From the NCBI GenBank assembly GCA_012646105.1, contig GCA_012646105.1_4328.1: 43,583 nt of DNA; one strand, 5' to 3'. Below are positions 3,707-39,863 of this stretch, piece after piece. The first letter of the stretch is position 1. Each line of letters starts with the position of its first letter. Origin of the DNA: a phage. Under the pieces are notes generated by a model. The model had not been told where the DNA came from and did not search any database. It saw only the letters and a list, made by a program, of their open reading frames with translations. Position numbers and translations under genes: made by a program.

Positions 3707-3987
3707 TGACTGACCATACCGTCATAGTATACTCCAGCGTGCCAGATTACACGGTTTCTGTGTCGTGTTGCCATAAGAACGGCATCGAAGTTTTGCGGGG
3801 TTTCCGTGCGTACAAGACCTTTAGTGTCTTTATGACCTTCTTCAAATGCATCATTAATCTGTGTTGGCGAAGCGACGTTAAACTCAGGCGTGGCGAGGCC
3901 TGCGTCCGCACGGACGTTACGCACATGGTGCCAGCAATTACGACGGCGAAAATCGTACGGTAGCCCTGTATAAGAATTAATATTCAT
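3622..3987 (-). CDS. minor tail protein (121 aa)
   Basis: six-frame ORF, ATGA-type overlap with upstream gene, position in tail-tip module. Confidence 0.5.
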   Translation of the reverse strand: MNINSYTGLPYDFRRRNCWHHVRNVRADAGLATPEFNVASPTQINDAFEEGHKDTKGLVRTETPQNFDAVLMATRHRNRVIWHAGVYYDGMVSHCELASRQVRLDRLEDLRETYAEIEFWR

Positions 3988-4499
3988 GTAGACAAAACAC
4001 CACGTAACAATGGGATTACTGAAGGGGTCATTAACTCGCCAGTGGCTCTTTGGTTCAACATAGGAACGCCCACATCAGCCGTGAATACCCCTTTTTCCTG
4101 ATTGATTGTCTGTAGCTCATAAACCACCGGCCCGTCCGCCGGGTAGGTTAAGTCTGTGCTGACGAAACGGCGGAATATAAACTTAGGCAACACCGTATTG
4201 TCTGGCGGGATGCGGTCCATCTCATCGTCTAACTGGTTACCGATGTCAGGTAGCGCAAACGACGCCCTCTGGTCCATATCGTTATTGTTCGCAGCCCCTT
4301 TAGCCTCCATAGGCGTAGCCTCAAACGTAACGACTTCGCCCGTCTCTAACGTTGCCGTCAGGTCGGAAGTTCCGCGCACAAGTAAATACCGCTTCGAAAG
4401 AAGCGGGTGAACTATCTCTAATGTAGTGTAATCAATCTCACCGTCTGGGTTTGAGGCCAGCTTACGGCGGTAGGCTGCTTCTACAGATTCCTGGCTCAT
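3984..4499 (-). CDS. minor tail protein (171 aa)
   Basis: six-frame ORF in tail-tip module downstream of tape measure. Confidence 0.5.
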   Translation of the reverse strand: MSQESVEAAYRRKLASNPDGEIDYTTLEIVHPLLSKRYLLVRGTSDLTATLETGEVVTFEATPMEAKGAANNNDMDQRASFALPDIGNQLDDEMDRIPPDNTVLPKFIFRRFVSTDLTYPADGPVVYELQTINQEKGVFTADVGVPMLNQRATGELMTPSVIPLLRGVLST

Positions 4500-5918: not shown

Positions 5919-8255
5919 TTAATACCCCGGCTGATTTCGTGTAGCCCGGCGGGACTTGGAGATTGCACTGTTGCTGTCTTGTAACGCCGCCGATACTGTT
6001 TCGCTGATGATAACACGTAACCGCCCTTCGTCGTCACGCTCTGTAACGGCAGAATCGACACGTCCGGTGGTGTTGTTGACGATTGTCACGCTGTCACCGC
6101 CTGACTTGTTGCCGTTCTCACCCATAATCTGGCGCATCTGTTCCGCGGTACGTACGCGTGACGCCCCCGCAGGCATAATAACTTCCGGCTTGTTACGTTC
6201 GGCGATAGTGGATAGCTGGCCTGCGGCTAAGTTACCGCCCTGCTCACGGGCCGAACGAATTTTGCCTATGTTTGCAAGACCCGCAGCTACCGCTGCGGCT
6301 GCCGCTACAGGCCCAAGTACCCAGCCGACAATAGGAATAGCGGACGCTGATTTATAAGCCTCAATAGCGGAGGTGTATGTGGCGATGGTGGCCTGAGCAA
6401 TGGCAAACGCTTTGTACGCAGTAGACGCTTCGCCAAGCGACGATTTAATGTTATCTGCCATCATTCCGAAAGCGTTACCTGTAGCATTGGCGCGCTTCAA
6501 AGCATACTGGTCGTTTATAGCATTAACCGCGGCCTGGTACTGTTCCTCGTTAATCAGATTCTGTTCGCGGTATCGGTCCGCAACGTCCAGTTTTTGTTGT
6601 TCCTGAATTTCCAGAAGCTCAAGCTCGGCGGCATTCTGGCCCATAATCTGTGCCATGAAGTCTTCACCTTTCTGGTTCTTCTCCTGCCGCTCTTTCTCGC
6701 GCTTAGCGAGTTCTTCCTGACGTGCGGTGTCCGCCTCTAGCATAATCTGCGTCTTGGCGTTTTCGTATTGCTGGTCGCTAAGAAGCTGATTGCCGTAAAA
6801 CTCCTGTAGCTTGGTTAACTGCTGTTCCTGGTTGGCTTCTATTTTCTGGAATACATCATCATTGAGATGAATAGACTGGTAGTAGAAATCCTCAGCGGCT
6901 TTCTTCTGGCGCTCGAATGCATCCGCAGCTTTCTTAGCGGCTTTTGCGCCAGCGCTACCATCTTCAGACCCGCCGCCGATACCAGTTACCTTAAATTTAC
7001 TAAGCCCTTCTTCCTTAGCGGCTTCTTTGTCGATGTCATATGCCGCGCGTTTAAGCGCGACGATATTTTGCTGAGCCTCCACCTGTTCGCGGAAACTTTT
7101 ACGTGTCAGGTCCGCAACATCGCGCTGAGTATCCAGTGCCATCCCCAGCTGGAAGTTAATATTTTTTGCTACGTCTACGGATTCCCCTGGTGTGAAGGCG
7201 GCCTTAACCAGCCGACCGGCATCCTGCGCCCCTTCAACCATATCCTCAAAGAAGCGCTCCATCGCGGTAAATTCTTCCGCGATGAAATCGAGCGCATCGG
7301 CGGCTGATTCCGCTATGGTTGTCGCCGTTTGTTCGCCGCTATCCGTGATACTTTTGCTACTAAAATCCCAAAGCTCATTTAGCCCGTTTATCGCATCACC
7401 AACGAAGCCAAACGCAGCGTCGAACGACATCTCTATAGCGCTTCCTACTTCTGACGCGATGTCGCCCCACATACGCATCTCAGCGGCAAGCTCACCAGAC
7501 GCTACCTGTGCGTTAAGTTCCTGGATTAAATCATCGATGTACCGGATAGGTTCAGCAAGAGCACCAACATCAAGGCTGGTAGCCAGTGTCATTTTTAACT
7601 GCGACCAAGAATCGCTTGCACTGGCTATAGCCCCGTTGAGTGTGTTGGCCTGGTCCGCCATAGCCCCCGCGAAGTTTACGTTACCAATATTGAGCAGGTA
7701 TTGCTCAATATCGGCAGCGCTCTTCTTAACCACCGTAGTAGTGCCCTGGAACGTGAATTCAACATCGTTTTTGTTCTGCTTGGCCTTGATACCAAATTCT
7801 TTAAGACGCTCGAATTCAAACGTACTGGCGTCCGCAACGGCCTCAATCATCTGATTCAGGTCTTTACCCATAGCAGCGGCGGTGTTTCCGTAGGAACGCA
7901 ACGCTTCTTCTGACGGTGTAAGACCAAGCGCCACAAGTTTACGGAATCCCTCTACCGCCTGTTCAAGGCCATACGGAGTGTCGCGCGCGAAGTCTTGCAG
8001 GATGCTTAACGCCTGTCTTGCACCCTGCGTGCTTCCGGTTAGTGTTTTCAGGCTGGCGGACATCTTGTCCAGTTGCCGTTGGGATTCTACCAGTTCCTGT
8101 GCGGCCTTGTACGCGGTAGCGGCGACGATGGAAGCGAGGCCCGCTACCGCAGCTCCGGCTACTTTTGCGGACTTGGAAAGGTTATCAAGACGGTCTGATG
8201 TAGCTTTCGCGCCTTGCTCTGATACTTTTACAACTAAACTAGCCACATCAGCCAT
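5919..8255 (-). CDS. tail length tape measure protein (778 aa)
   Basis: long alpha-helical/coiled-coil protein with Ala/Gln/Glu-rich repeats, N-terminal region typical of tape measure proteins, preceded by chaperone pair. Confidence 0.85.
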   Translation of the reverse strand: MADVASLVVKVSEQGAKATSDRLDNLSKSAKVAGAAVAGLASIVAATAYKAAQELVESQRQLDKMSASLKTLTGSTQGARQALSILQDFARDTPYGLEQAVEGFRKLVALGLTPSEEALRSYGNTAAAMGKDLNQMIEAVADASTFEFERLKEFGIKAKQNKNDVEFTFQGTTTVVKKSAADIEQYLLNIGNVNFAGAMADQANTLNGAIASASDSWSQLKMTLATSLDVGALAEPIRYIDDLIQELNAQVASGELAAEMRMWGDIASEVGSAIEMSFDAAFGFVGDAINGLNELWDFSSKSITDSGEQTATTIAESAADALDFIAEEFTAMERFFEDMVEGAQDAGRLVKAAFTPGESVDVAKNINFQLGMALDTQRDVADLTRKSFREQVEAQQNIVALKRAAYDIDKEAAKEEGLSKFKVTGIGGGSEDGSAGAKAAKKAADAFERQKKAAEDFYYQSIHLNDDVFQKIEANQEQQLTKLQEFYGNQLLSDQQYENAKTQIMLEADTARQEELAKREKERQEKNQKGEDFMAQIMGQNAAELELLEIQEQQKLDVADRYREQNLINEEQYQAAVNAINDQYALKRANATGNAFGMMADNIKSSLGEASTAYKAFAIAQATIATYTSAIEAYKSASAIPIVGWVLGPVAAAAAVAAGLANIGKIRSAREQGGNLAAGQLSTIAERNKPEVIMPAGASRVRTAEQMRQIMGENGNKSGGDSVTIVNNTTGRVDSAVTERDDEGRLRVIISETVSAALQDSNSAISKSRRATRNQPGY

Positions 8256-8612: not shown

Positions 8613-9029
8613 CTACTTTTCCTGCAATTGGCGAAGCTGTTCGTTATGGAAAACAACAACATGTTCAGCTAGACGTTTATATTGAGAGAAAAGAGTATTC
8701 AGGTTCTCTTTATTAAATTCATCGTCGAGACTCCAACCGTTAACCAGTTCAAGTGCTAACTGGCGGTTAAGGTCCGTCGCGGCGTCTTCCATCTTAATGT
8801 TGTATTCCGAGAAATCTTTCAGTTCCTCGCATTTATCACGAAGCGGTTTCAATTTACCTAATGCTGCTCGGTACGCCAGGGTAAACGCCCTCATAGCTTT
8901 AACGGCAACGTCGGCATCGGGGGAGACAACGTTAAGCCATTCTCCTGAATCGGTGCCGTCTTTCAGCGGGATTGGCATACGGGCGCCTTTTTCGGCCTCA
9001 GCTTCGTAATAAAAATCAGAAAGTTTCAT
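8613..9029 (-). CDS. tail assembly chaperone (gpG-like, 138 aa)
   Basis: acidic small protein directly upstream of the second chaperone ORF and tape measure; conserved G/GT position. Confidence 0.55.
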   Translation of the reverse strand: MKLSDFYYEAEAEKGARMPIPLKDGTDSGEWLNVVSPDADVAVKAMRAFTLAYRAALGKLKPLRDKCEELKDFSEYNIKMEDAATDLNRQLALELVNGWSLDDEFNKENLNTLFSQYKRLAEHVVVFHNEQLRQLQEK

Positions 9030-9136
9030 TATTTAATCCTTTGGTTAAGAGGTTACTGGTTAAGGTTAATGCGCCAGGCGGGAACCACCCGCTTTTCGTG
9101 TGCGACACTAGGCGCAAAATAATTCTAACACATTAC

Positions 9137-9165
9137 TTGCGCACCCCAACATAATAGGATACTAT
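9137..9165 (+). promoter_or_regulatory. sigma70-like promoter TTGCGC-N17-TACTAT with embedded AATAG-N4-CTATT operator-like palindrome
   Basis: -35 at 9137-9142, -10 at 9160-9165, 40 nt upstream of ATG 9206; near-identical copies at 18181, 28837 and 29836. Confidence 0.5.
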
Positions 9166-9205
9166 TCACTTACACCAACGATGTTATCTTAAACGGGGCT
9201 ATATC

Positions 9206-16579: not shown

Positions 16580-17283
16580 TATTTTTTCCTCAGGGCTTTA
16601 AGTTGCCGTTCAAATTCGGCAGGGTTCGATTCGTACAGAGCGATACGCTCCGCTTCACTCATGTCTTTAAACGCTGGTGCGGCCCCGCCGCCTTTGCCGC
16701 CGGAAGCCCCGCCGCCGGAAGCTGCATTTGCTTTAATCAAATGCGAAAACGCTTTGTGTTCACGCAGATATTTGCGGAACTGTTCCGGGTCAGTCGTGAT
16801 TACGTTGCCGTCTGCACCAACAAACTTAGTAACCACATCATCGCCTTCGAACTCAGTCTTAACGAACGGTGCAAGAATGTCCACTGCTTCAGGGGTGATA
16901 AAGTCGCCCGCGAAAGAGCCTAACACCGCTTTACGTTCGCTGCCGAGGATGCGCTCTGCCATTCTGGAGATGCGACCATCTTTCTCGGCTAACACCGGGT
17001 CATACTGGCTACGAATCGTCTTTTCGAACTCGTCCATCTTACCGGCGGCTTTTAACGCCTCCTGGTGTGCGCGCTGTCGTTCTTCTTCGGCCTCTTTTGC
17101 TTTACGGGCGGCTTCTTTCTTCTCCGCCAGCAATGCTTCCTGATTAGCCTTAAGCCCGGCCACTTCTTTCTCAATCAGCGCCTGAACTTCTTCAGCGGTG
17201 AACATTTTTGGCGCATCACCGCCACCAGCTTTATCTTCTGCCCCAGCTTCTTCCTGGAACGGATAACGTAAAAAACGATTCAT
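16579..17283 (-). CDS. scaffolding protein (start at ATG 17283; ORF-track start 17337 is TTG)
   Basis: charged coiled-coil-type sequence (EEVQALIEKEVAGLKANQEALLAEKKEAARKAKEAEEERQRAHQEALKAAGKMDE) directly upstream of capsid gene. Confidence 0.65.
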   Translation of the reverse strand: MNRFLRYPFQEEAGAEDKAGGGDAPKMFTAEEVQALIEKEVAGLKANQEALLAEKKEAARKAKEAEEERQRAHQEALKAAGKMDEFEKTIRSQYDPVLAEKDGRISRMAERILGSERKAVLGSFAGDFITPEAVDILAPFVKTEFEGDDVVTKFVGADGNVITTDPEQFRKYLREHKAFSHLIKANAASGGGASGGKGGGAAPAFKDMSEAERIALYESNPAEFERQLKALRKK

Positions 17284-17365
17284 AGTCAGTATGTCCCCTG
17301 GACGTTGGAACCCGGGCCACCCGGATTTACATGTCAAGAATAAATTATTCCAACATGCAAGGCAA

Positions 17366-17629
17366 CTATTCCAGAATATTCCTTACATAATCCTGCAGCA
17401 TGAACACCTTCAGGCGCAGTTGCCGTACACATTCGGCATTCTGAACATCGATAGCCAAATCCTCGTCGGCGTCGCTACTTGGCGTGGCCAGTTTGCACGG
17501 CGGCTGCATCATCGTCGTATCCGGGAATGGAATTGGCGTTTGCGACGGCGCGGGACTTGAGCAGGACGCGAGCATCATCGAAAGTGCACACGCTGCGGCC
17601 AGGCGTTCTAATGTACTTAACGACTTCAC
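17366..17629 (-). CDS. Rz1-like outer-membrane spanin lipoprotein (87 aa)
   Basis: signal peptide ending in lipobox LASC, Pro-rich mature region; ORF starts inside the i-spanin gene in another frame. Confidence 0.6.
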   Translation of the reverse strand: MKSLSTLERLAAACALSMMLASCSSPAPSQTPIPFPDTTMMQPPCKLATPSSDADEDLAIDVQNAECVRQLRLKVFMLQDYVRNILE

Positions 17630-17861
17630 GGGTAATCACCTCTGATTTCGTCTTGCCTTCGTTGTCAGCGGCGGCTGCCTTTGATTCGTCCTGCTGCTGC
17701 CGTTGTGTTTTCTTCGCTAACTCGGCCTGCGCTTCTTGCTGTTGCTGTGAAACGAGATTCGCCCGGCCTTCGTTCCAGCCGCTGCGGTATTGAAAGTAGC
17801 CGTGTGCGTAAGCCAGGATGATGAAACATGCTCCAGCTACGACAGTTGCTTTAAGATTCAT
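17475..17861 (-). CDS. Rz-like inner-membrane spanin (128 aa)
   Basis: N-terminal TMD (VVAGACFIILAYAHGYF), Gln/Glu/Ala-rich coiled coil, overlapping o-spanin ORF. Confidence 0.65.
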   Translation of the reverse strand: MNLKATVVAGACFIILAYAHGYFQYRSGWNEGRANLVSQQQQEAQAELAKKTQRQQQDESKAAAADNEGKTKSEVITREVVKYIRTPGRSVCTFDDARVLLKSRAVANANSIPGYDDDAAAVQTGHAK

Positions 17862-17885
17862 GTTTCTCCTTTCTCGATAAGTAAA

Positions 17886-17905
17886 GCCCCGCCTTAAAGC
17901 GGGGC
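17886..17905 (-). other. stem-loop GCCCCGC-CTTAAA-GCGGGGC about 25 nt upstream of spanin start
   Basis: 7 bp GC stem followed by T-rich tract on minus strand; putative attenuator or terminator. Confidence 0.35.
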
Positions 17906-18180
17906 GCTAGTCCTTATCATTTAAACACAGAAACGGCGTAATCTCAGTAAATCAGTTACTTTTTACACAAGCAATAGAGTATGGCCCTTCCGGACGCGTC
18001 AGCGTAACTACACTCAGGACTTACGTCCAGCTCCGTTACCTGCCCGCGACGCGGTCGCTTGTTCATACTTCACAAGCTCAGGTGGAGCTTAGCATATTTT
18101 TAGTGAAAAGTCAACTATTCGAATAGTTTATTCCAACATTTACAATTGAGTGGAATAACTGGAATGCGTAAACAAATAGT

Positions 18181-18209
18181 TTGCATACTCCAATATAATA
18201 GGGTACTAT
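18181..18209 (+). promoter_or_regulatory. promoter TTGCAT-N17-TACTAT with embedded operator-like palindrome
   Basis: -35 at 18181-18186, -10 at 18204-18209, RBS AGGAG at 18224-18228, ATG 18237. Confidence 0.5.
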
Positions 18210-18236
18210 TCAGTTAACTTAAACAGGAGATGAGAA

Positions 18237-18758
18237 ATGGTTACTACGGTAATTACTTTCCCTGCGTATGTAGGGGCGAAAATCTGCAGGGCTAAAAACG
18301 ATGTGCGCTACTATTTGAACGCTTTTTACATAGAACCTGAGGGGTTGATAGTGTCTACGGATGGGCATAGATTGTTCTGCGACAATGTGAAGACAAACGT
18401 TGAGAAAGGGGTTCTCATTGATATCAAAGGGAGAGAGCCTTCTAAATTTAACTACGCAGAGGTAGACCACGACAACGGCAGTGTTTCTTTCTATGACGAT
18501 AGTCGCGCGCTTATATGTACACTTCCGGTAGATGTTGTAGAAGGAAACTTTCCTGACTGGAGACGCGTGGCGCACATCACACCGGGTGTTGTCGATAGTA
18601 TAGGGTTCACTCTGCGTTATTTGGCAGACGCGTACAAGATTTCTAAGGCGTACAAAAATGAAATTTCTCGTTTCGATTTCCAGGACCAAACCAGAGGATG
18701 CAAAATATCATTTTCAAACACGGCCTTTATGGTGTTAATGCCCGCGCGATTTAAATAA
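18237..18758 (+). CDS. hypothetical protein (173 aa), counter-oriented insertion in head module
   Basis: strong RBS, own promoter and terminator; no motif recognised. Confidence 0.6.
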   Translation: MVTTVITFPAYVGAKICRAKNDVRYYLNAFYIEPEGLIVSTDGHRLFCDNVKTNVEKGVLIDIKGREPSKFNYAEVDHDNGSVSFYDDSRALICTLPVDVVEGNFPDWRRVAHITPGVVDSIGFTLRYLADAYKISKAYKNEISRFDFQDQTRGCKISFSNTAFMVLMPARFK

Positions 18759-18762
18759 AACT

Positions 18763-18783
18763 AAGGCCCCGTTAAGGGGCCTT
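18763..18783. terminator. bidirectional rho-independent terminator
   Basis: AAGGCCCC-GTTAA-GGGGCCTT perfect 8 bp stem, A/T runs on both sides. Confidence 0.6.
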
Positions 18784-18786
18784 ATA

Positions 18787-19248
18787 TCATTCTGGTTTGG
18801 TGACCTTCGCCGCTTTACTGACGGCCTCTACACCATCGGCATCAGTAACTTTAACGAAGTATTCACCCACCGCGTTAACCGTCAGAGACAAAGCCTCTTC
18901 CGGGGCGTTTACTACTTCCTTACCATCTTTGTACCAGGTCAGAACATACGGCGCTTTGCCTGCCTTAACTTCGACAGTGATAGTTGCGCTGCCGTCTACC
19001 AATTCAGTGTCTTTCGGTTGCATAGAGAAATACACATCGCCAGCATCGGCCAGATACGGAATCTCGTAAAGCATGCCCGCCGCTGGCAGCGCAATACCGG
19101 TTTTATCCGCAAACGGCATCTCGTCTACAGGCGAACCTAGTACACTTTCGTCCTCAATAAATACCACGTTCTCGCCGGAGCCAGACACACGGGCGTACTG
19201 GACTACGCGACGTGACGGCACATCAGTTACTTTGAAAAAGCCCATCAT
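18787..19248 (-). CDS. structural protein with C-terminal Ig-like domain (153 aa)
   Basis: PYVLTWYKDGKEV...GEYFVKVTDADG I-set-like pattern. Confidence 0.5.
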   Translation of the reverse strand: MMGFFKVTDVPSRRVVQYARVSGSGENVVFIEDESVLGSPVDEMPFADKTGIALPAAGMLYEIPYLADAGDVYFSMQPKDTELVDGSATITVEVKAGKAPYVLTWYKDGKEVVNAPEEALSLTVNAVGEYFVKVTDADGVEAVSKAAKVTKPE

Positions 19249-25748: not shown

Positions 25749-25777
25749 AATATAATAGGGTCGACGGTAATAGTCAA
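25749..25777 (-). promoter_or_regulatory. promoter TTGACT-N17-TATATT (minus strand) with operator half-site
   Basis: -35 at 25777-25772, -10 at 25754-25749, upstream of gene starting 25714. Confidence 0.4.
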
Positions 25778-27119: not shown

Positions 27120-27608
27120 TTAAGTATGCAGTAACTGGAGGATAGCACGGTTAGGAATTATCCTAATAGTTGTTTGGTAATAATCTTGCCGCCTGTGTTG
27201 GTGTCGAACTTCGATGCAACGGCTACGCCGCCATGCGCCGCCATGCGCCGAATATCCGCACTCCATAGCGGCTAATGCATATGGCGAGCCAGACCCCACG
27301 GCGGCGTACACATCAGCAACCGGAATAACTGAACTAAGCGCACAATCCCATGATTTATAGAACGCGACTTTGTACACCTTTTCTGTGTCTTTCACGAACA
27401 CCAGGGCTTCGAAATCGAAGTCATAGTGCTGTGGCCGAAGAATACCAGGGCAATCGATAAGCATAGTGCCAACTCCTGCGTCGCCAGCCACACCAATAAC
27501 AGCAAAATCATTCTCATATATCTTTGTGTCTGTGTTGTAGCAGTTACTTCCGCACACAACACGGGTGTCACAACCCATTGTCTTTCCGTCAAATGCGATA
27601 GTAGTCAT
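27120..27608 (-). CDS. HslV-like Ntn-hydrolase peptidase homolog, C-terminus possibly frameshifted by a 10 bp duplication
   Basis: MTTIAFDGK N-terminus, NDFAVIGVAGDAG and AVGSGSPYALAAM blocks resemble HslV; tandem CCATGCGCCG x2 at 27231-27250. Confidence 0.5.
   Translation of the reverse strand: MTTIAFDGKTMGCDTRVVCGSNCYNTDTKIYENDFAVIGVAGDAGVGTMLIDCPGILRPQHYDFDFEALVFVKDTEKVYKVAFYKSWDCALSSVIPVADVYAAVGSGSPYALAAMECGYSAHGGAWRRSRCIEVRHQHRRQDYYQTTIRIIPNRAILQLLHT
27231..27250. repeat. perfect 10 bp tandem duplication CCATGCGCCG-CCATGCGCCG inside coding sequence
   Basis: seen directly in sequence. Confidence 0.9.
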
Positions 27609-27901
27609 TTATGTCTCCAGATGTATTGTCGTCTCTGTGGTTTCGTCGGAGTATCATCGTATCCCAGCGATTTCCAGTAATTAAATAGCCGATTAGCGAT
27701 AGCCGCGCGTTCCTGTGTTTTAAACTCACCGAGATTCACCGCCTTCCCGTTCTGGAACCCGCAGGCGCGGACAGCTTTTCGTCTGGCCTGAATCTCAGGG
27801 TACAGCGCGTTACGGTGGCGCTTGTGTATACGCGTCTTAGCTCTCGGTGACAGCGGCGCAAGACCGCTTCGTTTCAGGATGTCAGTTGCAAGAGACATCA
27901 C
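27605..27901 (-). CDS. hypothetical early protein (98 aa, basic)
   Basis: six-frame ORF, ATGA coupling. Confidence 0.45.
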   Translation of the reverse strand: MMSLATDILKRSGLAPLSPRAKTRIHKRHRNALYPEIQARRKAVRACGFQNGKAVNLGEFKTQERAAIANRLFNYWKSLGYDDTPTKPQRRQYIWRHK

Positions 27902-28101
27902 TTCTCCTGTTTACCAAGCCGCTTAGGTGAGCAGATAGCGCGTACCTCTGAATCGTTAGGCTTGTCGGCCTGAAACAGGAAGTGCGCGTTCTCTGCGGCG
28001 CGTGCCGCTGACTGGCACGCCTCCATCGAGTAAAACGTTTCTGATGCCGCCAGTTGCATCTGGCCCGCGGACAATACCCAGATAAATAAGATGCTGGTCA
28101 T
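27898..28101 (-). CDS. small secreted-type protein (signal-peptide-like N-terminus MTSILFIWVLSAGQMQLAA)
   Basis: start refined to ATG 28101; hydrophobic N-terminus; two Cys. Confidence 0.4.
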   Translation of the reverse strand: MTSILFIWVLSAGQMQLAASETFYSMEACQSAARAAENAHFLFQADKPNDSEVRAICSPKRLGKQEK

Positions 28102-28421
28102 TTGGTCGCTCCACAATTAATACATACGGCGGGAGCCTTACCATTAACGAATCGCCAGTTATGGTGGCATTCCTGGATATCGTCCTTACGGCAACCAGAT
28201 TGCTCCCGTGCGCGGATAAGTTTGTACGCCTCTACATCACCCGTAGCTTTGACCAGAGCCAGATGCAACTCCTTAATCCGCGCCGACGCATCACGTAACT
28301 GATTCTTAAGTGACTGCACCTCATGCGCCAGGTCTTCGCACTGCTGCTTGTATGGGTTGCTGTTTACTTGCTGCCGTAGTTGGTCGATCAGGTACTCGAA
28401 TACTTCGTTTTTGTTACTCAT
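28098..28421 (-). CDS. hypothetical protein with coiled coil and C-terminal zinc-ribbon-like CHHNW...CINCG (alternative start 28466)
   Basis: six-frame ORF. Confidence 0.45.
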   Translation of the reverse strand: MSNKNEVFEYLIDQLRQQVNSNPYKQQCEDLAHEVQSLKNQLRDASARIKELHLALVKATGDVEAYKLIRAREQSGCRKDDIQECHHNWRFVNGKAPAVCINCGATK

Positions 28422-28641
28422 CAGTTTCTCCCAACACCGACTCAATAATGTAAGTATGGACCGCATGGGTTAATGTGTCGCCGTATGACACGCCTGGCGT
28501 ACCAGGGATACCCGCCATCCAACGCATATCACCTTTCGACTGGCGACCTATCATGTGGATGCCGTATCTCTCTACAAGGATGTCCACCTCATCGAGAATC
28601 CCCTTGCGGCGTAACAGCGCACGTGCTTTTGCGGGGGTCAT
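28414..28641 (-). CDS. hypothetical early protein (75 aa)
   Basis: six-frame ORF. Confidence 0.45.
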   Translation of the reverse strand: MTPAKARALLRRKGILDEVDILVERYGIHMIGRQSKGDMRWMAGIPGTPGVSYGDTLTHAVHTYIIESVLGETDE

Positions 28642-28805
28642 TGCGCAACCTCATACAAAGTTTCCGGGTAACCCCATGTTGCTTTAGCAACAAGATTATT
28701 ATCACTATCAACGTATATAGACTCTGGCGTACCTGCATTAATAACCATGTGATACATAAGACCTTCTACTGTGCTGAAAAACTCATCTTTAGTTACTGCT
28801 TTCAT
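28638..28805 (-). CDS. small hypothetical protein (55 aa, MKAVTKDEFFSTVEGLMYHM...)
   Basis: hand translated; RBS AGGAG about 10 nt upstream; first gene after promoter 28837-28865. Confidence 0.45.
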   Translation of the reverse strand: MKAVTKDEFFSTVEGLMYHMVINAGTPESIYVDSDNNLVAKATWGYPETLYEVAQ

Positions 28806-28836
28806 CTTCTGTCTCTCCTCTCGTTTGTGTAAATGA

Positions 28837-28865
28837 ATAGTAGCCTATTCTATCTTAGTGTGCAA
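28837..28865 (-). promoter_or_regulatory. promoter TTGCAC-N17-TACTAT (minus strand) overlapping GAATAG-N4-CTATTC palindrome
   Basis: -35 at 28865-28860, -10 at 28842-28837. Confidence 0.5.
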
Positions 28866-28872
28866 GTAAATT

Positions 28873-29043
28873 TTATTGGTGTTTTAAATATAATCGTTCA
28901 CTGCGAATCCAGTAGTACCTCGGGCGTCGTACCCACTGACGCCATCGCATAACACGGTACTTGTTGCCGTCTGACGCAACAATAAGCCCGAATCGCTTTT
29001 CTCCGTTTCTACCGGTCCAGGTTACGATGTCATTCAGTTTCAT
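28873..29043 (-). CDS. hypothetical early protein (start refined to ATG 29043 with AGGAG RBS)
   Basis: ORF-track start 29067 is GTG without RBS. Confidence 0.45.
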   Translation of the reverse strand: MKLNDIVTWTGRNGEKRFGLIVASDGNKYRVMRWRQWVRRPRYYWIRSERLYLKHQ

Positions 29044-29114
29044 TGTTGCATCTCCTGCAATAGTCACTTCGATTGTTGCGTTTGGTGAAATAGAACAAAA
29101 ATGAGAAAAATGAT

Positions 29115-29134
29115 ACGCTGCTGTGTAGCAGCGT
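29115..29134 (-). terminator. rho-independent terminator (minus strand)
   Basis: ACGCTGCT-GTGT-AGCAGCGT 8 bp stem followed by T-rich tract on minus strand. Confidence 0.45.
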
Positions 29135-29157
29135 AAGTCACTCAGTAAAATCCCAAA

Positions 29158-29319
29158 CTATTGACCTGTTACACCACCTGTCATACCGGCACGATATTGC
29201 ACACCAGCTTTCCACGCCCGCCACGCGAGACGCGTCTTAACGTTCAGGTACTCTTTCTTCGAACCCTTGTTAACTGGCAGACCCTCGACGACGGCCCACC
29301 GTTCGAATGCTTCTCTCAT
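29158..29319 (-). CDS. small hypothetical protein (53 aa)
   Basis: hand translated (MREAFERWAVVEGLPVNKGSKKEY...); weak G-rich RBS. Confidence 0.35.
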   Translation of the reverse strand: MREAFERWAVVEGLPVNKGSKKEYLNVKTRLAWRAWKAGVQYRAGMTGGVTGQ

Positions 29320-29370
29320 ACCAACCCCCACAACGCGTGCGCCACATAAATAGCGCTGACAATTAAAATG

Positions 29371-29613
29371 TTATTCACGGCAACCTCCCTCAGAGTCGTC
29401 GGCACAAGCATCACGATTCGATGCCGCTGTGAATGAGGCTTTCAGTCCGCCATCGAATACCCCATATTCGCCGTCGCCGAACTGGTCAACTACCAACTCG
29501 CACCCTGTTTCATCTATTACATAATCGTAATCAGGTGTTGAATAACCGCTGTATGATCTTCCCGGCTTGAACCCCGATAATTTACTTTTCACGCAAATTA
29601 ATTCTTCCATCAC
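29371..29613 (-). CDS. hypothetical early protein (80 aa, acidic, Cys-containing)
   Basis: six-frame ORF, ATGA coupling. Confidence 0.5.
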   Translation of the reverse strand: MMEELICVKSKLSGFKPGRSYSGYSTPDYDYVIDETGCELVVDQFGDGEYGVFDGGLKASFTAASNRDACADDSEGGCRE

Positions 29614-29810
29614 TTCACCCCTTTGAATTTAAAATTGTTGCCAATTAATTCCAGATTATCGCGTAAGGCGAACCCGGGTTTCTTTCTTACCAGGCTCCAT
29701 ACGTCGACTATATTATCCTCGTCATACTCGTTCTCGTCCTGCAACACTATTACGTACTGCCCACCGCGTTCCGTTTTCACCAACTGACCACGTTTAAACA
29801 TAACCCTCAC
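29610..29810 (-). CDS. hypothetical early protein (66 aa; ATG at 29801 or GTG at 29810)
   Basis: first gene after promoter 29836-29864. Confidence 0.5.
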   Translation of the reverse strand: MRVMFKRGQLVKTERGGQYVIVLQDENEYDEDNIVDVWSLVRKKPGFALRDNLELIGNNFKFKGVK

Positions 29811-29835
29811 TCCTCTGTCTCGTTTCGATAAGTGA

Positions 29836-29864
29836 ATAGTAACCTATTATGTTGGGGTGTGCAA
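29836..29864 (-). promoter_or_regulatory. promoter TTGCAC-N17-TACTAT (minus strand) with embedded operator palindrome
   Basis: spacer ACCCCAACATAATAGG is almost identical to that of the 9137 promoter. Confidence 0.5.
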
Positions 29865-30296
29865 GAAAATAGTTACGTTGCCGTTGTGATTCTTTGGGGA
29901 AGGTTGTGCCTTTATTCTTATTACTTGGTAACTAAAGGGCAGGCCTTAAGCCTGCCCAATAATCGTTACATTTTTACGGTTGCGAATCTACGGCATATTA
30001 AGAAAATCAGATACTTAAGAGATATGCTGCCGATGTGAATAGAGCTTGCCCAGGGCAACCGGAGATACTTAGGAAGGAAAGTTACGATAATTCATATGTT
30101 CAGTAAGCCTGCTGCTTAACCCTTTGCTTAACGCACGGGTTAAGCATTCTTACAAGGTGAACAGGAATCAAAGTAACTAAGATATAGAAGCACCTTAAAC
30201 GAAGATTTTCATAATGTCAATAGGTGCGATTATGTTTTATTTCCCATTATTCGCAATGTATACTTGGTTTCGTTAACTGATAATGAGGGTTTGAGA

Positions 30297-33252: not shown

Positions 33253-33325
33253 TTGATATGTGAATAGTACCATATTAATTATTTTAGAAAAGCCCATTGA
33301 CATGTGAATAGTTCGCTATTATAGT
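33253..33325. promoter_or_regulatory. divergent promoter/operator region with two operator palindromes
   Basis: TTGATA-N17-TAATTA and TTGACA-N17-TATAGT, each spacer containing TGTGAATAGT; leftward -10 TACTAT at 33269-33264. Confidence 0.5.
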
Positions 33326-36125: not shown

Positions 36126-36154
36126 TTGACACCTGAATAGTTAGCTATTATATT
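36126..36154 (+). promoter_or_regulatory. promoter TTGACA-N17-TATATT with TGAATAG-N4-CTATTAT operator in spacer
   Basis: consensus -35, upstream of 36208 gene. Confidence 0.5.
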
Positions 36155-37052: not shown

Positions 37053-39298
37053 GCTATTTATACCTGGACTTTGAAACATTCTCCGAAGCCGATTTAAAGA
37101 AAGTCGGTTCCTACGCTTACGCCGAACACCCAACTACAGAAGTGCTTATCTGTACGTATGCTTTTGACGACGAGCCTGTACAGGTATGGGATTGCACCGA
37201 CGGCAGCGACATGCCGGGAGATTTGCACCGCGCCTTGCGCCGCCTGGTTAAGCCAAACAGCCGCACCAAGATGGTGTGGCACAACGGCTCAATGTTCGAT
37301 AGGCTCGTCATGAAGCACTGCTGGGGTTTTGATATTCCCGTAAGCAACACCATTGATACGATGATTTGGGCGTTTCGCCACGCGTTGCCTGGTTCACTTG
37401 ATGCGTTGTGCGAAGTGCTGGGCGTATCCGCAGACAACGCGAAAGACAAACGAGGCAAGGCGCTGATTCAGCGTTTTTCTAAACCTACACCGAAGAACTA
37501 CAAAATCCGCCGATACACCGCCGAAACGCACCCGGATGAGTGGGCGCTGTTCATCAAGTACGCCGTGAGCGACATCACTGCGATGCGTGAAGTGTTCCAC
37601 AAGCTGCCGCGTTGGGGTAACTCAGAGTTCGAGGACCGTGTACTGGAACTGGACCAGTTAATCAACGACCGCGGGTTTAAGGTTGACGTCGCACTGGCGG
37701 AAGCCGCAATTGAAGCAGTAGAGAAACACAAAGCGCAGTTACAGGAAGAAGCACAGCGCAAATACGGCGGCTCGCTTACGGGTAAAGACTTCCTACCGAT
37801 TCTGCGTGAACTTGCACCAGCTCACCGCATCCACAATGCGCAGAAGTCGACGCTTAACGACCTGCTGGCAGATGATGATTTGCCCGACGACGCCCGAACG
37901 ATTATCGAGATGCGCCTCGGAGCCGCGTCCACCGCTTCGACGAAATATAACCCGCTGCTGTTAGGTCGCTCGTCTGACGACCGTCGCCGTGGTTGCATTC
38001 AGTATGGCGGGGCAAAGCGTACATTACGGTTTGCGGGTAAAGGCTTCCAGCCACAGAACCTCGCACGCGGGTACTATCACGACGACCCGAAGAATAAAAA
38101 GAAGAAAGTACGTTATGACTGGATGTCAGAGAAGGACTGGTGGAGAGTAACGCACCCATTGTCCTACGGAATTGACCTGCTGTTTAAAGGCCGTGCGCAT
38201 CGCCGTTTTGATGTGGCAAAACTGACAGCATCTACGGTGCGTAGCTGCATCATACCGGAAGTGGGGCATAAGTTTGTCGTCGCTGATTACTCTAACGTCG
38301 AAGGCCGCGGGTTGGCATGGCTGGCGGGAGAAGAAACCGCTCTCGATACGTTCCGTGCGGGATTGGATATTTACTGCGTAACCGCGGGTAAGATGTTCGG
38401 CATGGATCCTGATTACATTCTCGAAAGCCGTAGTGACCTGCGCCAGATTGGTAAAGCCTGCGAACTTGGCCTCGGCTACGCAGGCGGTGTCGGAGCTTTC
38501 GTTCAGTTTGCTAAGAACCTCGGCTTAAACCTGGTTGATATGGCAAAAACAATGGACGGGACTTTCCCTGACCACATCTGGGCCGCTACCGCACGTGGGT
38601 ATGAGTGGGCACGTATTCAGGAAGCCAAGAGACCGCCACGTCCTGGTGAAAAAGATGACCGACCATCATATATTCTTGATAAGAAAGTGTGGCGCACCTG
38701 CGACGCTATCAAGCGCATGTGGCGCGAGTCTCACCCGGAAACAGTAGCTTTCTGGCGAGATATTGAAGATGCAGCTATGGCGGCTATCCGTAATCCCGGT
38801 AAAGAGTTCACTGCGGGGCCGCGCGGCGTTAAGTTTTCGCGCAGCGTAGAGACAGACAACAACGGCAACAAAGTCGCTGGTTGGTGGTTGCGCATGACGT
38901 TGCCGTCGGGTCGCGTTATGTCCTACCCTGGCGTAGGGTTAAGTGTGTCGAAAGAGACCGACGAAGACGGAAAGGTATCTACTAACGTGCGCATCAAGTA
39001 CCAGGGCGAAAATCAGTTAACACGACAGTGGGGCTTCCAGTACACCTACTCCGGTAAACTGGTGGAAAACTGCACTCAGGCGCTGTGCCGTGATTTGCTG
39101 GCGAATGCGCTGCTGAACGTAGAAGCAAACGGCTACCCGATTGTACTTCACGTACACGATGAGATTATCTGCGAGACACCCGATTTACCGGAATACAATG
39201 TAGCTGAACTGGAAAAATTAATGTGCGCGTTGCCTGAGTGGGCTGAAGGGTTCCCTCTTGTAGCAGAAGGTCAGGAGTTAAAACGCTATGCCAAGTAA
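37049..39298 (+). CDS. DNA polymerase, family A, with 3'-5' exonuclease domain
   Basis: exo motif YLDFETFS, motif B RQIGKACELGLGYAGG, motif C HVHDEI; ATG 37049 with AAGGA RBS (ORF-track start 36980 is GTG). Confidence 0.85.
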   Translation: MSYLYLDFETFSEADLKKVGSYAYAEHPTTEVLICTYAFDDEPVQVWDCTDGSDMPGDLHRALRRLVKPNSRTKMVWHNGSMFDRLVMKHCWGFDIPVSNTIDTMIWAFRHALPGSLDALCEVLGVSADNAKDKRGKALIQRFSKPTPKNYKIRRYTAETHPDEWALFIKYAVSDITAMREVFHKLPRWGNSEFEDRVLELDQLINDRGFKVDVALAEAAIEAVEKHKAQLQEEAQRKYGGSLTGKDFLPILRELAPAHRIHNAQKSTLNDLLADDDLPDDARTIIEMRLGAASTASTKYNPLLLGRSSDDRRRGCIQYGGAKRTLRFAGKGFQPQNLARGYYHDDPKNKKKKVRYDWMSEKDWWRVTHPLSYGIDLLFKGRAHRRFDVAKLTASTVRSCIIPEVGHKFVVADYSNVEGRGLAWLAGEETALDTFRAGLDIYCVTAGKMFGMDPDYILESRSDLRQIGKACELGLGYAGGVGAFVQFAKNLGLNLVDMAKTMDGTFPDHIWAATARGYEWARIQEAKRPPRPGEKDDRPSYILDKKVWRTCDAIKRMWRESHPETVAFWRDIEDAAMAAIRNPGKEFTAGPRGVKFSRSVETDNNGNKVAGWWLRMTLPSGRVMSYPGVGLSVSKETDEDGKVSTNVRIKYQGENQLTRQWGFQYTYSGKLVENCTQALCRDLLANALLNVEANGYPIVLHVHDEIICETPDLPEYNVAELEKLMCALPEWAEGFPLVAEGQELKRYAK

Positions 39299-39578: not shown

Positions 39579-39863
39579 ATGACCCCGGAAGGAAAGATTC
39601 AGAAATACGCAAAAGAGCAATTCGAGGCCATTGGCGGCCTCGTTCGTAAGATGGCATTTGAAGGTCGGCGGGCCGCCATGGACCTCCTGGTAATTCTCCC
39701 CGGCGGCATCGTCTGGTTCGTCGAGGTTAAGAAAGACGAAAACACGAAGCCAGACCCGCACCAACTACGGGAACATGAGAGATTTCGAAAACGTGGCGCT
39801 AATGTTTTTGTCGTTGGTTCGTTTAAACAGGTTGACGACCTAATAGCGAACTATTATAGTTAG
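39579..39863 (+). CDS. VRR-NUC domain nuclease (94 aa)
   Basis: DLLVILPGGIVWFVEVK PD-(D/E)xK-type core. Confidence 0.6.
   Translation: MTPEGKIQKYAKEQFEAIGGLVRKMAFEGRRAAMDLLVILPGGIVWFVEVKKDENTKPDPHQLREHERFRKRGANVFVVGSFKQVDDLIANYYS

What the first reader, a model, noticed from the sequence alone, without database searches (positions are those of the whole stretch)
17862..18180. About 320 bp non-coding region with palindromes and repeats between spanins and the inserted gene
In a genome with mostly overlapping genes this gap stands out. It contains a GC stem-loop (17886-17905), the palindromic octamer GACGCGTC, a perfect 12 bp palindrome CTATTCGAATAG built from the operator half-sites in reversed arrangement (around 18112-18123), and the motif TTATTCCAACAT, which also occurs at about 17345-17356 upstream of the scaffold gene. 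Candidate functions: packaging site, late-promoter control region, or a small RNA.
Basis: seen in the sequence. Interest (0 to 1): 0.45.

Follow-up and report, generated by a model that had tools for sequence, protein, structure and literature searches.

The report
Promoter and structured leader RNA before spanins
The gap upstream of the spanin genes of this K1G-like coliphage holds a conserved leftward promoter and a roughly 200-base folded RNA, absent from Rfam and found at the same place in about 500 related phage genomes, that probably controls expression of the capsid and tail operon.

Summary
The window is a complete Kagunavirus (Guernseyvirinae) genome. The gap is real and runs 17862-18236 (375 bp).

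On the minus strand the gap reads as one unit:
- a cluster of GGAATA/TATTCC repeats;
- an extended -10 promoter (TTGACT, 17 bp, TGn-TAAGCT);
- an RNA domain of about 110 nt, made of a short hairpin next to a long irregular hairpin;
- an A/U-rich linker;
- a GC hairpin about 13 nt before the Rz ribosome-binding site.

In an alignment of 34 distinct copies, 99% of pair cells are paired and 9 of 26 pairs show compensatory changes. There are 40 G-U against 4 A-C cells, which identifies the minus strand as the folded one.

Two main alleles sit at this site in 450 of 496 relatives. Many genomes carry a second copy at the head of the early operon.

Rfam, tRNA and HK022 put tests were negative, and 5,426 E. 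coli genomes hold no copy.

Best reading: late-operon promoter plus a cis-acting structured leader, possibly an antiterminator. A free small RNA is the main rival. Function is inferred, not shown.

The parts
18121..18165 (-). Upstream repeat cluster. It contains ATTCC and TTATTCCA (18165-18151), the inverted partner TGGAATAA (18135-18128) and ACTATTC. The inverted repeat is centred about 64 bp upstream of the predicted start. It includes the 12-mer ATGTTGGAATAA, which recurs at 17356-17345.
   Evidence: Read from the sequence. Conserved in the type A, Jersey and Cornellvirus alleles. Absent upstream of the early-region paralogues. GGAATAANNTATTC matches with 0 mismatches only at 18121-18134 and 17338-17351.
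18113..18128 (.). Perfect 16-bp palindrome AACTATTCGAATAGTT. It overlaps the -35 hexamer by 2 bp. It is specific to this allele.
   Evidence: Not present in the Jersey or SP-031 alleles.
18086..18114 (-). Sigma-70 extended -10 promoter. The parts are -35 TTGACT (18114-18109), a 17-bp spacer, TG (18094-18093) and -10 TAAGCT (18091-18086). The predicted start is near 18079.
   Evidence: Sequence. TTGACT and TGn-TAAGCT are invariant in types A, B and C. Jersey has TTGACT or TAGACT with TGtTACGCT, and SP-031 has TGaTAACCT. The depositors of phage phi135 annotated a promoter at the same place. The start site is inferred, not mapped.
17971..18085 (-). Structured 5' domain of the RNA. It consists of hairpin P1, a 2-nt spacer, and a long irregular hairpin with the apical hairpin GGAC-GUAA-GUCC at 18028-17017 region (18028-18017). 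The palindromic octamer GACGCGTC lies in its 3' strand.
   Evidence: RNAalifold. Pair counts. Covariance model R1 scores 137 bits here and finds the 60%-identical Jersey allele at E about 1e-11.
17906..17970 (-). A/U-rich linker. It begins with the conserved motif CUCUAUUGC and contains a small hairpin, AGUAA-CUGAU-UUACU.
   Evidence: The related motif GCU(C/A)UAUU also occurs in the Jersey allele and in the unrelated early leader at 30038-30044.
17877..17905 (-). GC hairpin GCCCCGC-UUUAA-GGCGGGGC followed by UUUACUUAU. In this allele it is a weak intrinsic terminator. It ends about 13 nt before the Rz ribosome-binding site.
   Evidence: The other alleles keep a GC hairpin but have no U-tract.
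17859..17873 (-). Ribosome-binding site (AAAGGAG) and ATG of the i-spanin Rz. This is the first gene fed by transcripts that pass the hairpin.
17956..18066 (-). A 36-codon ORF annotated as a hypothetical protein in some records. It is judged non-coding.
   Evidence: There are 1-nt indels in copies that are 95% identical (L008, L015, L021, L010) and an early stop in paralogues. Different ORFs are annotated in different alleles.
18181..18216 (+). Promoter-like repeat of the plus-strand gene cassette, TTGCAT (18181-18186), 17 bp, TACTAT (18204-18209). It contains the AATAG-N4-CTATT palindrome. It is not part of the core element.
   Evidence: Copies at 9137-9172, 28814-28865 and 29829-29864. It is missing, together with the cassette, in ER11 and Jersey.
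17338..17371 (-). Second GGAATA repeat cluster (three GGAATA, including ATGTTGGAATAA) upstream of the scaffold gene.
   Evidence: Conserved across Kagunavirus, Jerseyvirus and Cornellvirus.

Best explanation
The gap is the promoter-leader module of the second half of the late operon (spanins, scaffold, capsid, head completion, tail).

Transcripts coming from the terminase-to-Hoc genes stop at the strong terminator at 18784-18762. A host sigma-70 extended -10 promoter (18114-18086, minus strand) then restarts transcription. This promoter is flanked upstream by GGAATA/TATTCC repeats that are probably bound by a regulator.

The first 110 nt or so of the transcript fold into two adjacent stem-loops. 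An A/U-rich linker follows, then a GC hairpin 13 nt before the Rz ribosome-binding site. Every Rz mRNA must therefore carry this leader.

I propose that the folded domain acts in cis on expression of the operon. The most likely mode is that it lets RNA polymerase read through the leader hairpin and the internal terminators at 15514-15493 and 10985-10966. It could do this either by binding the polymerase that made it, as HK022 put RNA does, or by recruiting a factor. Transcripts that stop at the hairpin would accumulate as an RNA of about 200 nt.

Shown here: the conserved promoter sequence, the RNA structure, which strand folds, the conserved position, and the paralogues at the early operon head.

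Inferred: the transcription start, the leader role, and the effect on elongation. That last, mechanistic step alone I rate at about 0.3.
For: Structure. 97.8% of pair cells are paired and 4 pairs show double changes among 22 type A/B/C cores. With the Jersey alleles added, 99.1% are paired and 9 of 26 pairs show double changes, against 23-42% paired in the slid controls. There are 40 G-U cells against 4 A-C.

Promoter. It is conserved in every allele.

Only source of transcripts. There is a strong terminator upstream (18784-18762 here, and directly after Hoc in Jersey), and no room for a promoter between the hairpin and the Rz ribosome-binding site.

The hairpin is unlikely to be a dedicated RNA 3' end. 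It lacks a U-tract in the Jersey, B/C and Cornellvirus alleles.

Position. The RNA sits at the same place in 181 + 269 of 496 relatives, and in diverged form in Cornellvirus and Serratia phage Tsm2.

Paralogues. Copies with the same promoter and 5' domain sit at the head of the early operon, co-directional with it. In Schulenburg this copy is at 37895-38023. So the element goes with operon heads, not with a particular downstream gene.

Internal terminators lie in the operon (also annotated in Schulenburg).

No Q- or N-like protein is annotated in Schulenburg.
Against: There is no transcript, start-site or termination data of any kind. In this allele the hairpin does look like a terminator, so a free RNA is plausible. 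No alternative antiterminator pairing was found. Covariance model R1 finds nothing in the HK022 put region (at most 5.9 bits), so there is no homology to the only well-studied RNA of this mechanism. Many phage late operons have internal terminators without any dedicated antitermination. The alignment that gives the best pair counts was fitted to the model.
Confidence: 0.5

Rival explanations
1. It is a free, trans-acting small RNA gene. The promoter and the hairpin terminator make a stable RNA of about 200 nt that binds a host or phage protein or mRNA. The Rz gene is expressed only by leakage through the terminator.
For: The module has its own promoter. In this allele the GC hairpin is followed by a U-rich tail. 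The 5' domain is strongly constrained, which suits a protein-binding RNA. Many genomes carry two copies. The type A allele is shared at 94-97% identity between E. coli and Salmonella phages, as expected if its target is a conserved host component.
Against: The Jersey, B/C and Cornellvirus alleles have no U-tract after the hairpin. All copies are co-directional with the genes immediately downstream and are the only visible promoter for them. No conserved single-stranded seed with an identified target was found.
Confidence: 0.25
2. It is a sensor leader, that is, a riboswitch or a protein-binding attenuator. The 5' domain would bind a metabolite or a phage or host protein and thereby set termination at the hairpin or translation of Rz.
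For: The conserved internal loops (CGG/UU, GAGUGUAGU, CGGAAGG) contrast with covarying helices. The 5' domain is more conserved than the 3' part between paralogues, which resembles an aptamer followed by an expression platform.
Against: No Rfam family matches, even at E up to 10. No mutually exclusive terminator and antiterminator pairing was seen, and the ribosome-binding site is free in the predicted folds. The apical half differs strongly between alleles. The hairpin is not a terminator in most alleles.
Confidence: 0.1
3. It is an RNA processing or stability element. The long irregular hairpin would be an RNase III-type site, like the sites between genes of phage T7, and the GC hairpin would protect the 5' end of the Rz-capsid mRNA.
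For: The hairpin is about 65 nt, with two helical segments around internal loops. In Jersey one segment is a perfect 10-bp helix. A GC hairpin sits at a fixed distance of about 25-28 nt before the Rz ATG in all alleles.
Against: The unpaired nucleotides are more conserved than a cleavage site needs. The paralogue at the early operon head has a different hairpin context.
Confidence: 0.08
4. It is a DNA-level element, either a packaging (pac) site or a replication origin.
For: It is a conspicuous non-coding region with palindromes and an A/T-rich stretch next to a promoter.
Against: The compensatory changes keep G-U pairs on one strand only, 40 against 4. Headful packaging is reported for a relative in the subfamily. 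The replication genes lie 12 kb away.
Confidence: 0.04
5. It is a small protein gene: the 36-aa ORF at 17956..18066, annotated as a hypothetical protein in several records.
For: Annotated in Schulenburg, fKuEco01 and others.
Against: There are frame-breaking 1-nt indels among near-identical copies and an early stop in paralogues. The ORFs annotated in other alleles are unrelated. There is no convincing ribosome-binding site.
Confidence: 0.02

Closest known systems
HK022 putL/putR antiterminator RNAs
   Same: Both are folded RNAs made of two adjacent stem-loops with bulges. Both are encoded immediately downstream of a sigma-70 promoter at the head of a long operon that contains terminators. Both occur as two copies per genome at two operon heads. 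In both cases no antiterminator protein is annotated (put features from PMC9378689; this element).
   Different: There is no sequence or structure match. This domain is larger, about 90-110 nt against about 70-74. The hosts are virulent siphoviruses rather than lambdoid temperate phages. Cis action and binding to the zinc-binding domain of the RNA polymerase beta' subunit are untested.
Lambda pR' - 6S RNA - tR' late control module (Q antitermination)
   Same: In both, a promoter is followed by a transcript of about 200 nt that ends at a terminator directly upstream of lysis and morphogenesis genes. Late expression therefore depends on read-through. This comparison rests on established knowledge of lambda.
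   Different: The lambda leader is not a conserved folded domain. Lambda needs the protein Q, which binds DNA within the promoter, and no Q-like gene is annotated here. Here the conserved DNA repeats lie upstream of -35, and the hairpin lacks a U-tract in most alleles.
int-alpA RNA motif (Rfam RF02996), present elsewhere in this window
   Same: It is also a small structured RNA placed right after a promoter-like repeat, at a point where the same strand's operon restarts after a reverse-strand cassette (9054-9118).
   Different: It is an unrelated sequence and fold, and its function is also unknown.

Membership tests
HK022 put RNA | Sequence and secondary-structure homology to putL/putR | tested here: not met
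   Covariance model R1 run with filters off over HK022 27600-30100 gives at most 5.9 bits, E at least 0.7.
HK022 put RNA | Two stem-loops encoded just downstream of a promoter at the head of a terminator-containing operon | tested here: met
   P1 plus a long hairpin begin within about 10 nt of the predicted start. Internal terminators lie at 15514-15493 and 10985-10966. A second copy sits at the early operon head.
HK022 put RNA | Acts in cis without protein factors by binding the zinc-binding domain of the RNA polymerase beta' subunit | not testable with these tools
   Needs in vitro transcription and rpoC mutants.
Lambda-type Q / pR' late module | A Q-family antiterminator gene and a Q-binding element within the promoter | not tested
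   No Q- or N-like product appears in the Schulenburg annotation, which used InterPro and HHpred. I ran no protein search of my own.
Sigma-70 extended -10 promoter | TGn directly upstream of a -10 hexamer with A at position 2 and T at position 6, plus a -35 hexamer at 17 bp | tested here: met
   TTGACT, 17 bp, TGcTAAGCT at 18114-18086. TGn and TAnnCT are kept in all alleles. Activity has not been measured.
Intrinsic (Rho-independent) terminator | GC-rich stem-loop followed directly by a U-tract | tested here: inconclusive
   Met in this allele: an 8-bp stem, then UUUACUUAU. Not met in the Jersey (UUAGCGUAU), B/C and SP-031 alleles.
Any Rfam 15 family (riboswitches, ribozymes, sRNAs, 6S, Y RNA-like) | Match to a curated covariance model | tested here: not met
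   Nothing relevant at the gathering score or at E up to 10 in the window. Nothing at E up to 1 in five other alleles.
tRNA / tmRNA | Cloverleaf detectable by ARAGORN | tested here: not met
   0 genes in the window and in the Jersey locus. The tRNA-Ser annotated in phage horsemountain lies on the other strand, over the Hoc terminator.
boxA (NusB/NusE site) | GCUCUUUA-like 8-mer with G2, C5 and U6 required | tested here: not met
   The conserved motif is N-UCUAUUG. G2 is A in type A. C5 is A in the Jersey allele and in part of the type D leaders. Requirements taken from PMC3177189.

The most novel reading that the evidence does not exclude
The folded 5' domain is a second, structurally unrelated class of polymerase-modifying antiterminator RNA. 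In this reading it would act like put RNA and need no protein. Virulent Guernseyvirinae would use it at each operon head to carry host RNA polymerase through terminators. The 5' domains would be interchangeable between the early and late heads, since the type B/C copies occupy the slot that holds the type D leader in other genomes.
Probability: 0.2. Interest if true: 0.8.

Novelty: new variant of a known kind. Interest (0 to 1): 0.55.

Why it matters
Guernseyvirinae (Jerseyvirus and Kagunavirus) include phages isolated and characterised for Salmonella biocontrol and for therapy of K1 and uropathogenic E. coli (titles and abstracts). I found no description of how they time late gene expression in the held literature.

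This analysis locates what looks like the main restart promoter of the capsid and tail operon. It also defines a covariation-supported RNA family that public annotations currently label as hypothetical small proteins or leave blank.

If the RNA acts on the transcribing polymerase, it would add a second example to a mechanism whose well-studied example is HK022 put. Even if it does not, it gives a concrete target for RNA-seq, reporter and deletion experiments. It is also a candidate new Rfam family and corrects annotation in several hundred genomes.

Tried and rejected
- Rfam at the gathering score and at lenient E-values: no match for the element in any allele tested.
- ARAGORN: no tRNA or tmRNA. 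The tRNA-Ser annotation in phage horsemountain is on the other strand and off the element.
- Host or plasmid origin. There is no match in 5,426 complete E. coli genomes. A motif scan of 185,579 species genomes returned a single match, in an unrelated Dehalococcoidia metagenome-assembled genome; the model scores that locus at only 10.4 bits, away from the motif match. One 'plasmid' hit has the size and the two RNA copies of a Kagunavirus genome, so I take it for a phage contig.
- Absolute ultraconservation. I rejected this after finding the Jersey allele, which is 62% identical to the window across the gap, less than the roughly 79% of the flanking genes. The 94-97% identity reflects one allele shared between genera.
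- boxA-like reading of CUCUAUU: the required positions are not kept.
- Pseudoknot or closing helix between the P1 loop AGUAUG and CAUACU in the 3' flank, which appears in the single-sequence fold: the paired C varies freely to G, U or A without compensation.
- Sigma-dependent pause element (a -10-like sequence in the P1 loop): not conserved in type C, L073 or Jersey.
- GGAATAANNTATTC as a general late-promoter motif: the other matches are a ribosome-binding-site context and coding sequence.
- Two IMG/VR scans aimed at more Jersey-type alleles returned only Jersey itself or collagen-like repeats.
- Literature searches for RNA-seq, promoters or non-coding RNA in these phages found nothing relevant.

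Full report
**What the window is.** The 43.6-kb window is a complete genome of a K1G-like siphovirus (Kagunavirus, subfamily Guernseyvirinae). The stretch 17300-18800 is 92-94% identical to about 15 annotated Escherichia phages. The fully annotated phage Schulenburg shows the gene order. One long transcription direction, the minus strand of the window, runs through small early genes, holin and endolysin, terminase, portal, head morphogenesis protein and a Hoc-like decoration protein. The finding lies next. After it come the i- and o-spanins, scaffold, major capsid protein, head completion proteins and the tail.

**Checking the observation.** The non-coding gap runs from 17862 to 18236 (375 bp). 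It lies between the ATG of Rz (minus strand) and the ATG of a plus-strand gene annotated as beta-clamp-like.
- The GC stem-loop at 17886-17905 is called a terminator on the minus strand only.
- GACGCGTC is at 17993-18000 and is not enriched.
- The palindrome is at 18115-18126 and extends to a perfect 16-mer at 18113-18128.
- TTATTCCAACAT is at 18128-18139 and 17345-17356.

**Conservation.** The gap alone matches 181 phage records at 92-97% identity, 65 of them Salmonella phages. In three such Salmonella phages the flanking capsid, scaffold and spanin genes are only 60-90% identical to the window, whereas 17836-18135 is 93-98% identical.

This is not absolute conservation. Phage Jersey and 268 other records carry a second allele at the same place. 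That allele is 62% identical to the window across the gap, less than the roughly 79% of the flanking genes. So there are at least two alleles, each 88-100% conserved within itself, and the type A allele has been exchanged between Kagunavirus and some Jerseyvirus genomes. Together the two alleles account for 450 of the 496 records that hold the scaffold-spanin block. Cornellvirus phages and Serratia phage Tsm2 have further diverged versions at the same position.

The rightmost part, 18166-18236, is not core. It travels with a variable plus-strand gene. That gene is clamp-like here, a methyltransferase in S106 and an endonuclease VII in SETP13, and it is absent in ER11 and Jersey.

**Anatomy on the minus strand.**
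- 18165-18121: repeats of TATTCC/GGAATA. They include an inverted pair, TTATTCCA and TGGAATAA, centred about 64 bp upstream of the predicted start.
- 18114-18109: TTGACT.
- 17-bp spacer ending in TGc.
- 18091-18086: TAAGCT.
- 18085-17971: a G+C-rich folded domain.
- 17970-17906: an A/U-rich linker.
- 17905-17886: a GC hairpin followed by UUUACUUAU.
- About 13 nt further on: the Rz ribosome-binding site.

The TTGACT and TGn-TAnnCT arrangement is kept in every allele. The depositors of phage phi135 independently annotated a promoter at this place.

**The RNA.** IMG/VR and metagenome scans plus an nhmmer search gave about 100 copies, of which 37 have distinct core sequences. They fall into two groups:
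- Type A lies upstream of Rz.
- Types B and C are paralogues in the early region.

RNAalifold on 22 distinct cores predicts a hairpin P1 and, 2 nt later, a long irregular hairpin. Pairs 38:97 (CG, UA, AU) and 48:86 (UA, AU, GC) covary, as does the apical hairpin (GGAC/GUCC, GUGC/GCAC, GGGC/GCCC).

The pair counts are:

| Alignment | Distinct copies | Pair cells paired | Pairs with changes on both sides | Control |
|---|---|---|---|---|
| A3, types A/B/C | 22 | 97.8% | 4 of 25 | 26-41% paired when partners are slid by 1-3 columns |
| A6, with Jersey alleles | 34 | 99.1% | 9 of 26 | 23-42% paired when slid; 0 of 500 shuffles reach the covariation score |

A covariance model built from the first alignment finds the 60%-identical Jersey alleles over their full length at E about 1e-11. 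The second alignment was fitted to that model, which favours the structure. P1 and the long helix are nevertheless also the minimum-free-energy fold of the Jersey sequence on its own (z = -4.0).

The paired cells include 40 G-U but only 4 A-C. The minus strand is therefore the strand that folds.

The 36-codon ORF inside the domain is broken by 1-nt indels among near-identical copies.

**Where else the RNA is.** No Rfam family matches. There is no tRNA or tmRNA. There is no copy in 5,426 complete E. coli genomes. A motif scan of species-representative genomes returned a single match, in an unrelated metagenome-assembled genome. The family appears confined to Guernseyvirinae phages.

**Leader or free RNA?** Four observations favour a cis-acting leader:
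1. A strong terminator ends upstream transcription (18784-18762 here, and directly after Hoc in Jersey). No promoter fits between the GC hairpin and the Rz ribosome-binding site. So Rz mRNA must start at this promoter and carry the folded domain.
2. The GC hairpin has a U-rich tail only in the type A allele. The Jersey, B/C and Cornellvirus alleles keep the hairpin without a U-tract.
3. The paralogues keep the same promoter and 5' domain but sit at the head of the early operon, co-directional with it. They lie next to a divergent AlpA-like HTH gene and the primase. In Schulenburg the copy is at 37895-38023, overlapping two small ORFs annotated on the opposite strand.
4. In the window that early slot holds a different leader of about 260 nt. 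It has the same kind of promoter (TTGACA, 17 bp, TAAGGT) and a similar 3' tail. The 5' domains therefore look interchangeable between operon heads.

The GGAATA repeats are present only at the late slot, and again upstream of the scaffold gene, where they are conserved across genera. That pattern fits a regulator that times the late copy.

The operon downstream contains internal terminators. Schulenburg has no annotated Q- or N-like protein.

This layout resembles HK022 putL/putR, which are two stem-loops just after early promoters that act in cis (PMC9378689). It also resembles the lambda pR'-6S-tR' module. Membership in the put family fails the homology test. The mechanistic step is inference only.

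**Rivals.** A free small RNA remains plausible, because in this allele the hairpin looks like a terminator. A riboswitch-like sensor, an RNase III processing site, a DNA-level pac site or origin, and a small protein gene are each less likely, for the reasons given in the rival list.

**Verdict.** The region encodes an RNA family that is absent from Rfam 15 and from the literature I could search. No experimental data bear on its function. The best-supported reading is a promoter plus a structured cis-acting leader for the late operon.

Noticed in passing
window 9054-9118 (minus strand), with 9137-9172: An Rfam int-alpA RNA hit (RF02996, 36.9 bits against a gathering score of 35.8) lies just downstream of a promoter-like repeat and upstream of the gene 8613..9029, whose Schulenburg counterpart is annotated as tail assembly chaperone. 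This is another point where the minus-strand operon restarts after a reverse-strand cassette, again with a promoter followed by a structured leader.
   Followed up: partly
window 29930-30220 (minus strand): A second non-coding leader ('type D') has promoter TTGACA-17-TAAGGT, about 260 nt of sequence, and the hairpin GGGCAGGC-UUAA-GGCCUGCCC followed by UUU. It matches 373 phage records, at about 77% identity in Salmonella phages, with a hairpin-like pattern of variation. It occupies the same slot as the B/C paralogues of the finding's RNA. It is probably another undescribed structured RNA.
   Followed up: partly
window 33297-33325, 36126-36154, 39832-39860 (plus strand); 25749-25777 (minus strand); 9137-9172, 18181-18216, 28814-28865, 29829-29864: A family of promoter-like elements shares the palindrome AATAG-N4-CTATT in the spacer and -10 region. 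Class I members have a consensus TTGACA. Class II members have TTGCAY-17-TACTAT and sit back-to-back with a ribosome-binding site. The palindrome is probably the operator of a phage regulator.
   Followed up: partly
window 18237-18758 (plus strand): The 173-aa gene annotated as beta-clamp-like in relatives sits in a variable cassette slot bounded by a bidirectional terminator (18762-18784). Relatives carry an adenine methyltransferase or an endonuclease VII there, or nothing.
   Followed up: partly
window 17281-17371 (minus strand): The 5' untranslated region of the scaffold gene contains three GGAATA repeats. It also has a hairpin, CCGGGTGGCCCGG, and a block AACGTCCAGGGGACATAYTGACTATG. The hairpin and the block are nearly invariant from Kagunavirus to Serratia phage Tsm2 and are more conserved than the coding flanks. 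The repeats are kept in Kagunavirus, Jerseyvirus and Cornellvirus but not in Tsm2. This may be a second regulatory RNA or DNA element.
   Followed up: no
PLSDB record CP088689.1 (44,086 bp, E. coli blood isolate): This record, filed as a non-mobilizable plasmid, carries the RNA at 96% identity in two places and has the size of a Kagunavirus genome. It is most likely a phage contig.
   Followed up: no
L081 (Schulenburg) 6328-6438, 37869-38012, 38040-38144; L123 (Jersey) 3831-4022; L130 (phi135) 755-874; L133 (fKuEco01) 2715-2825: Public records annotate unrelated small hypothetical proteins over the RNA copies, and on the wrong strand for the early copy in Schulenburg. These are probably annotation artefacts.
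   Followed up: partly
window 17786-18165 compared with L003, L004, L005: The type A allele, together with the first 70 bp or so of Rz, behaves as a recombination module shared between E. coli and Salmonella phages. Identity jumps from about 65-85% to 93-98% at its borders.
   Followed up: partly
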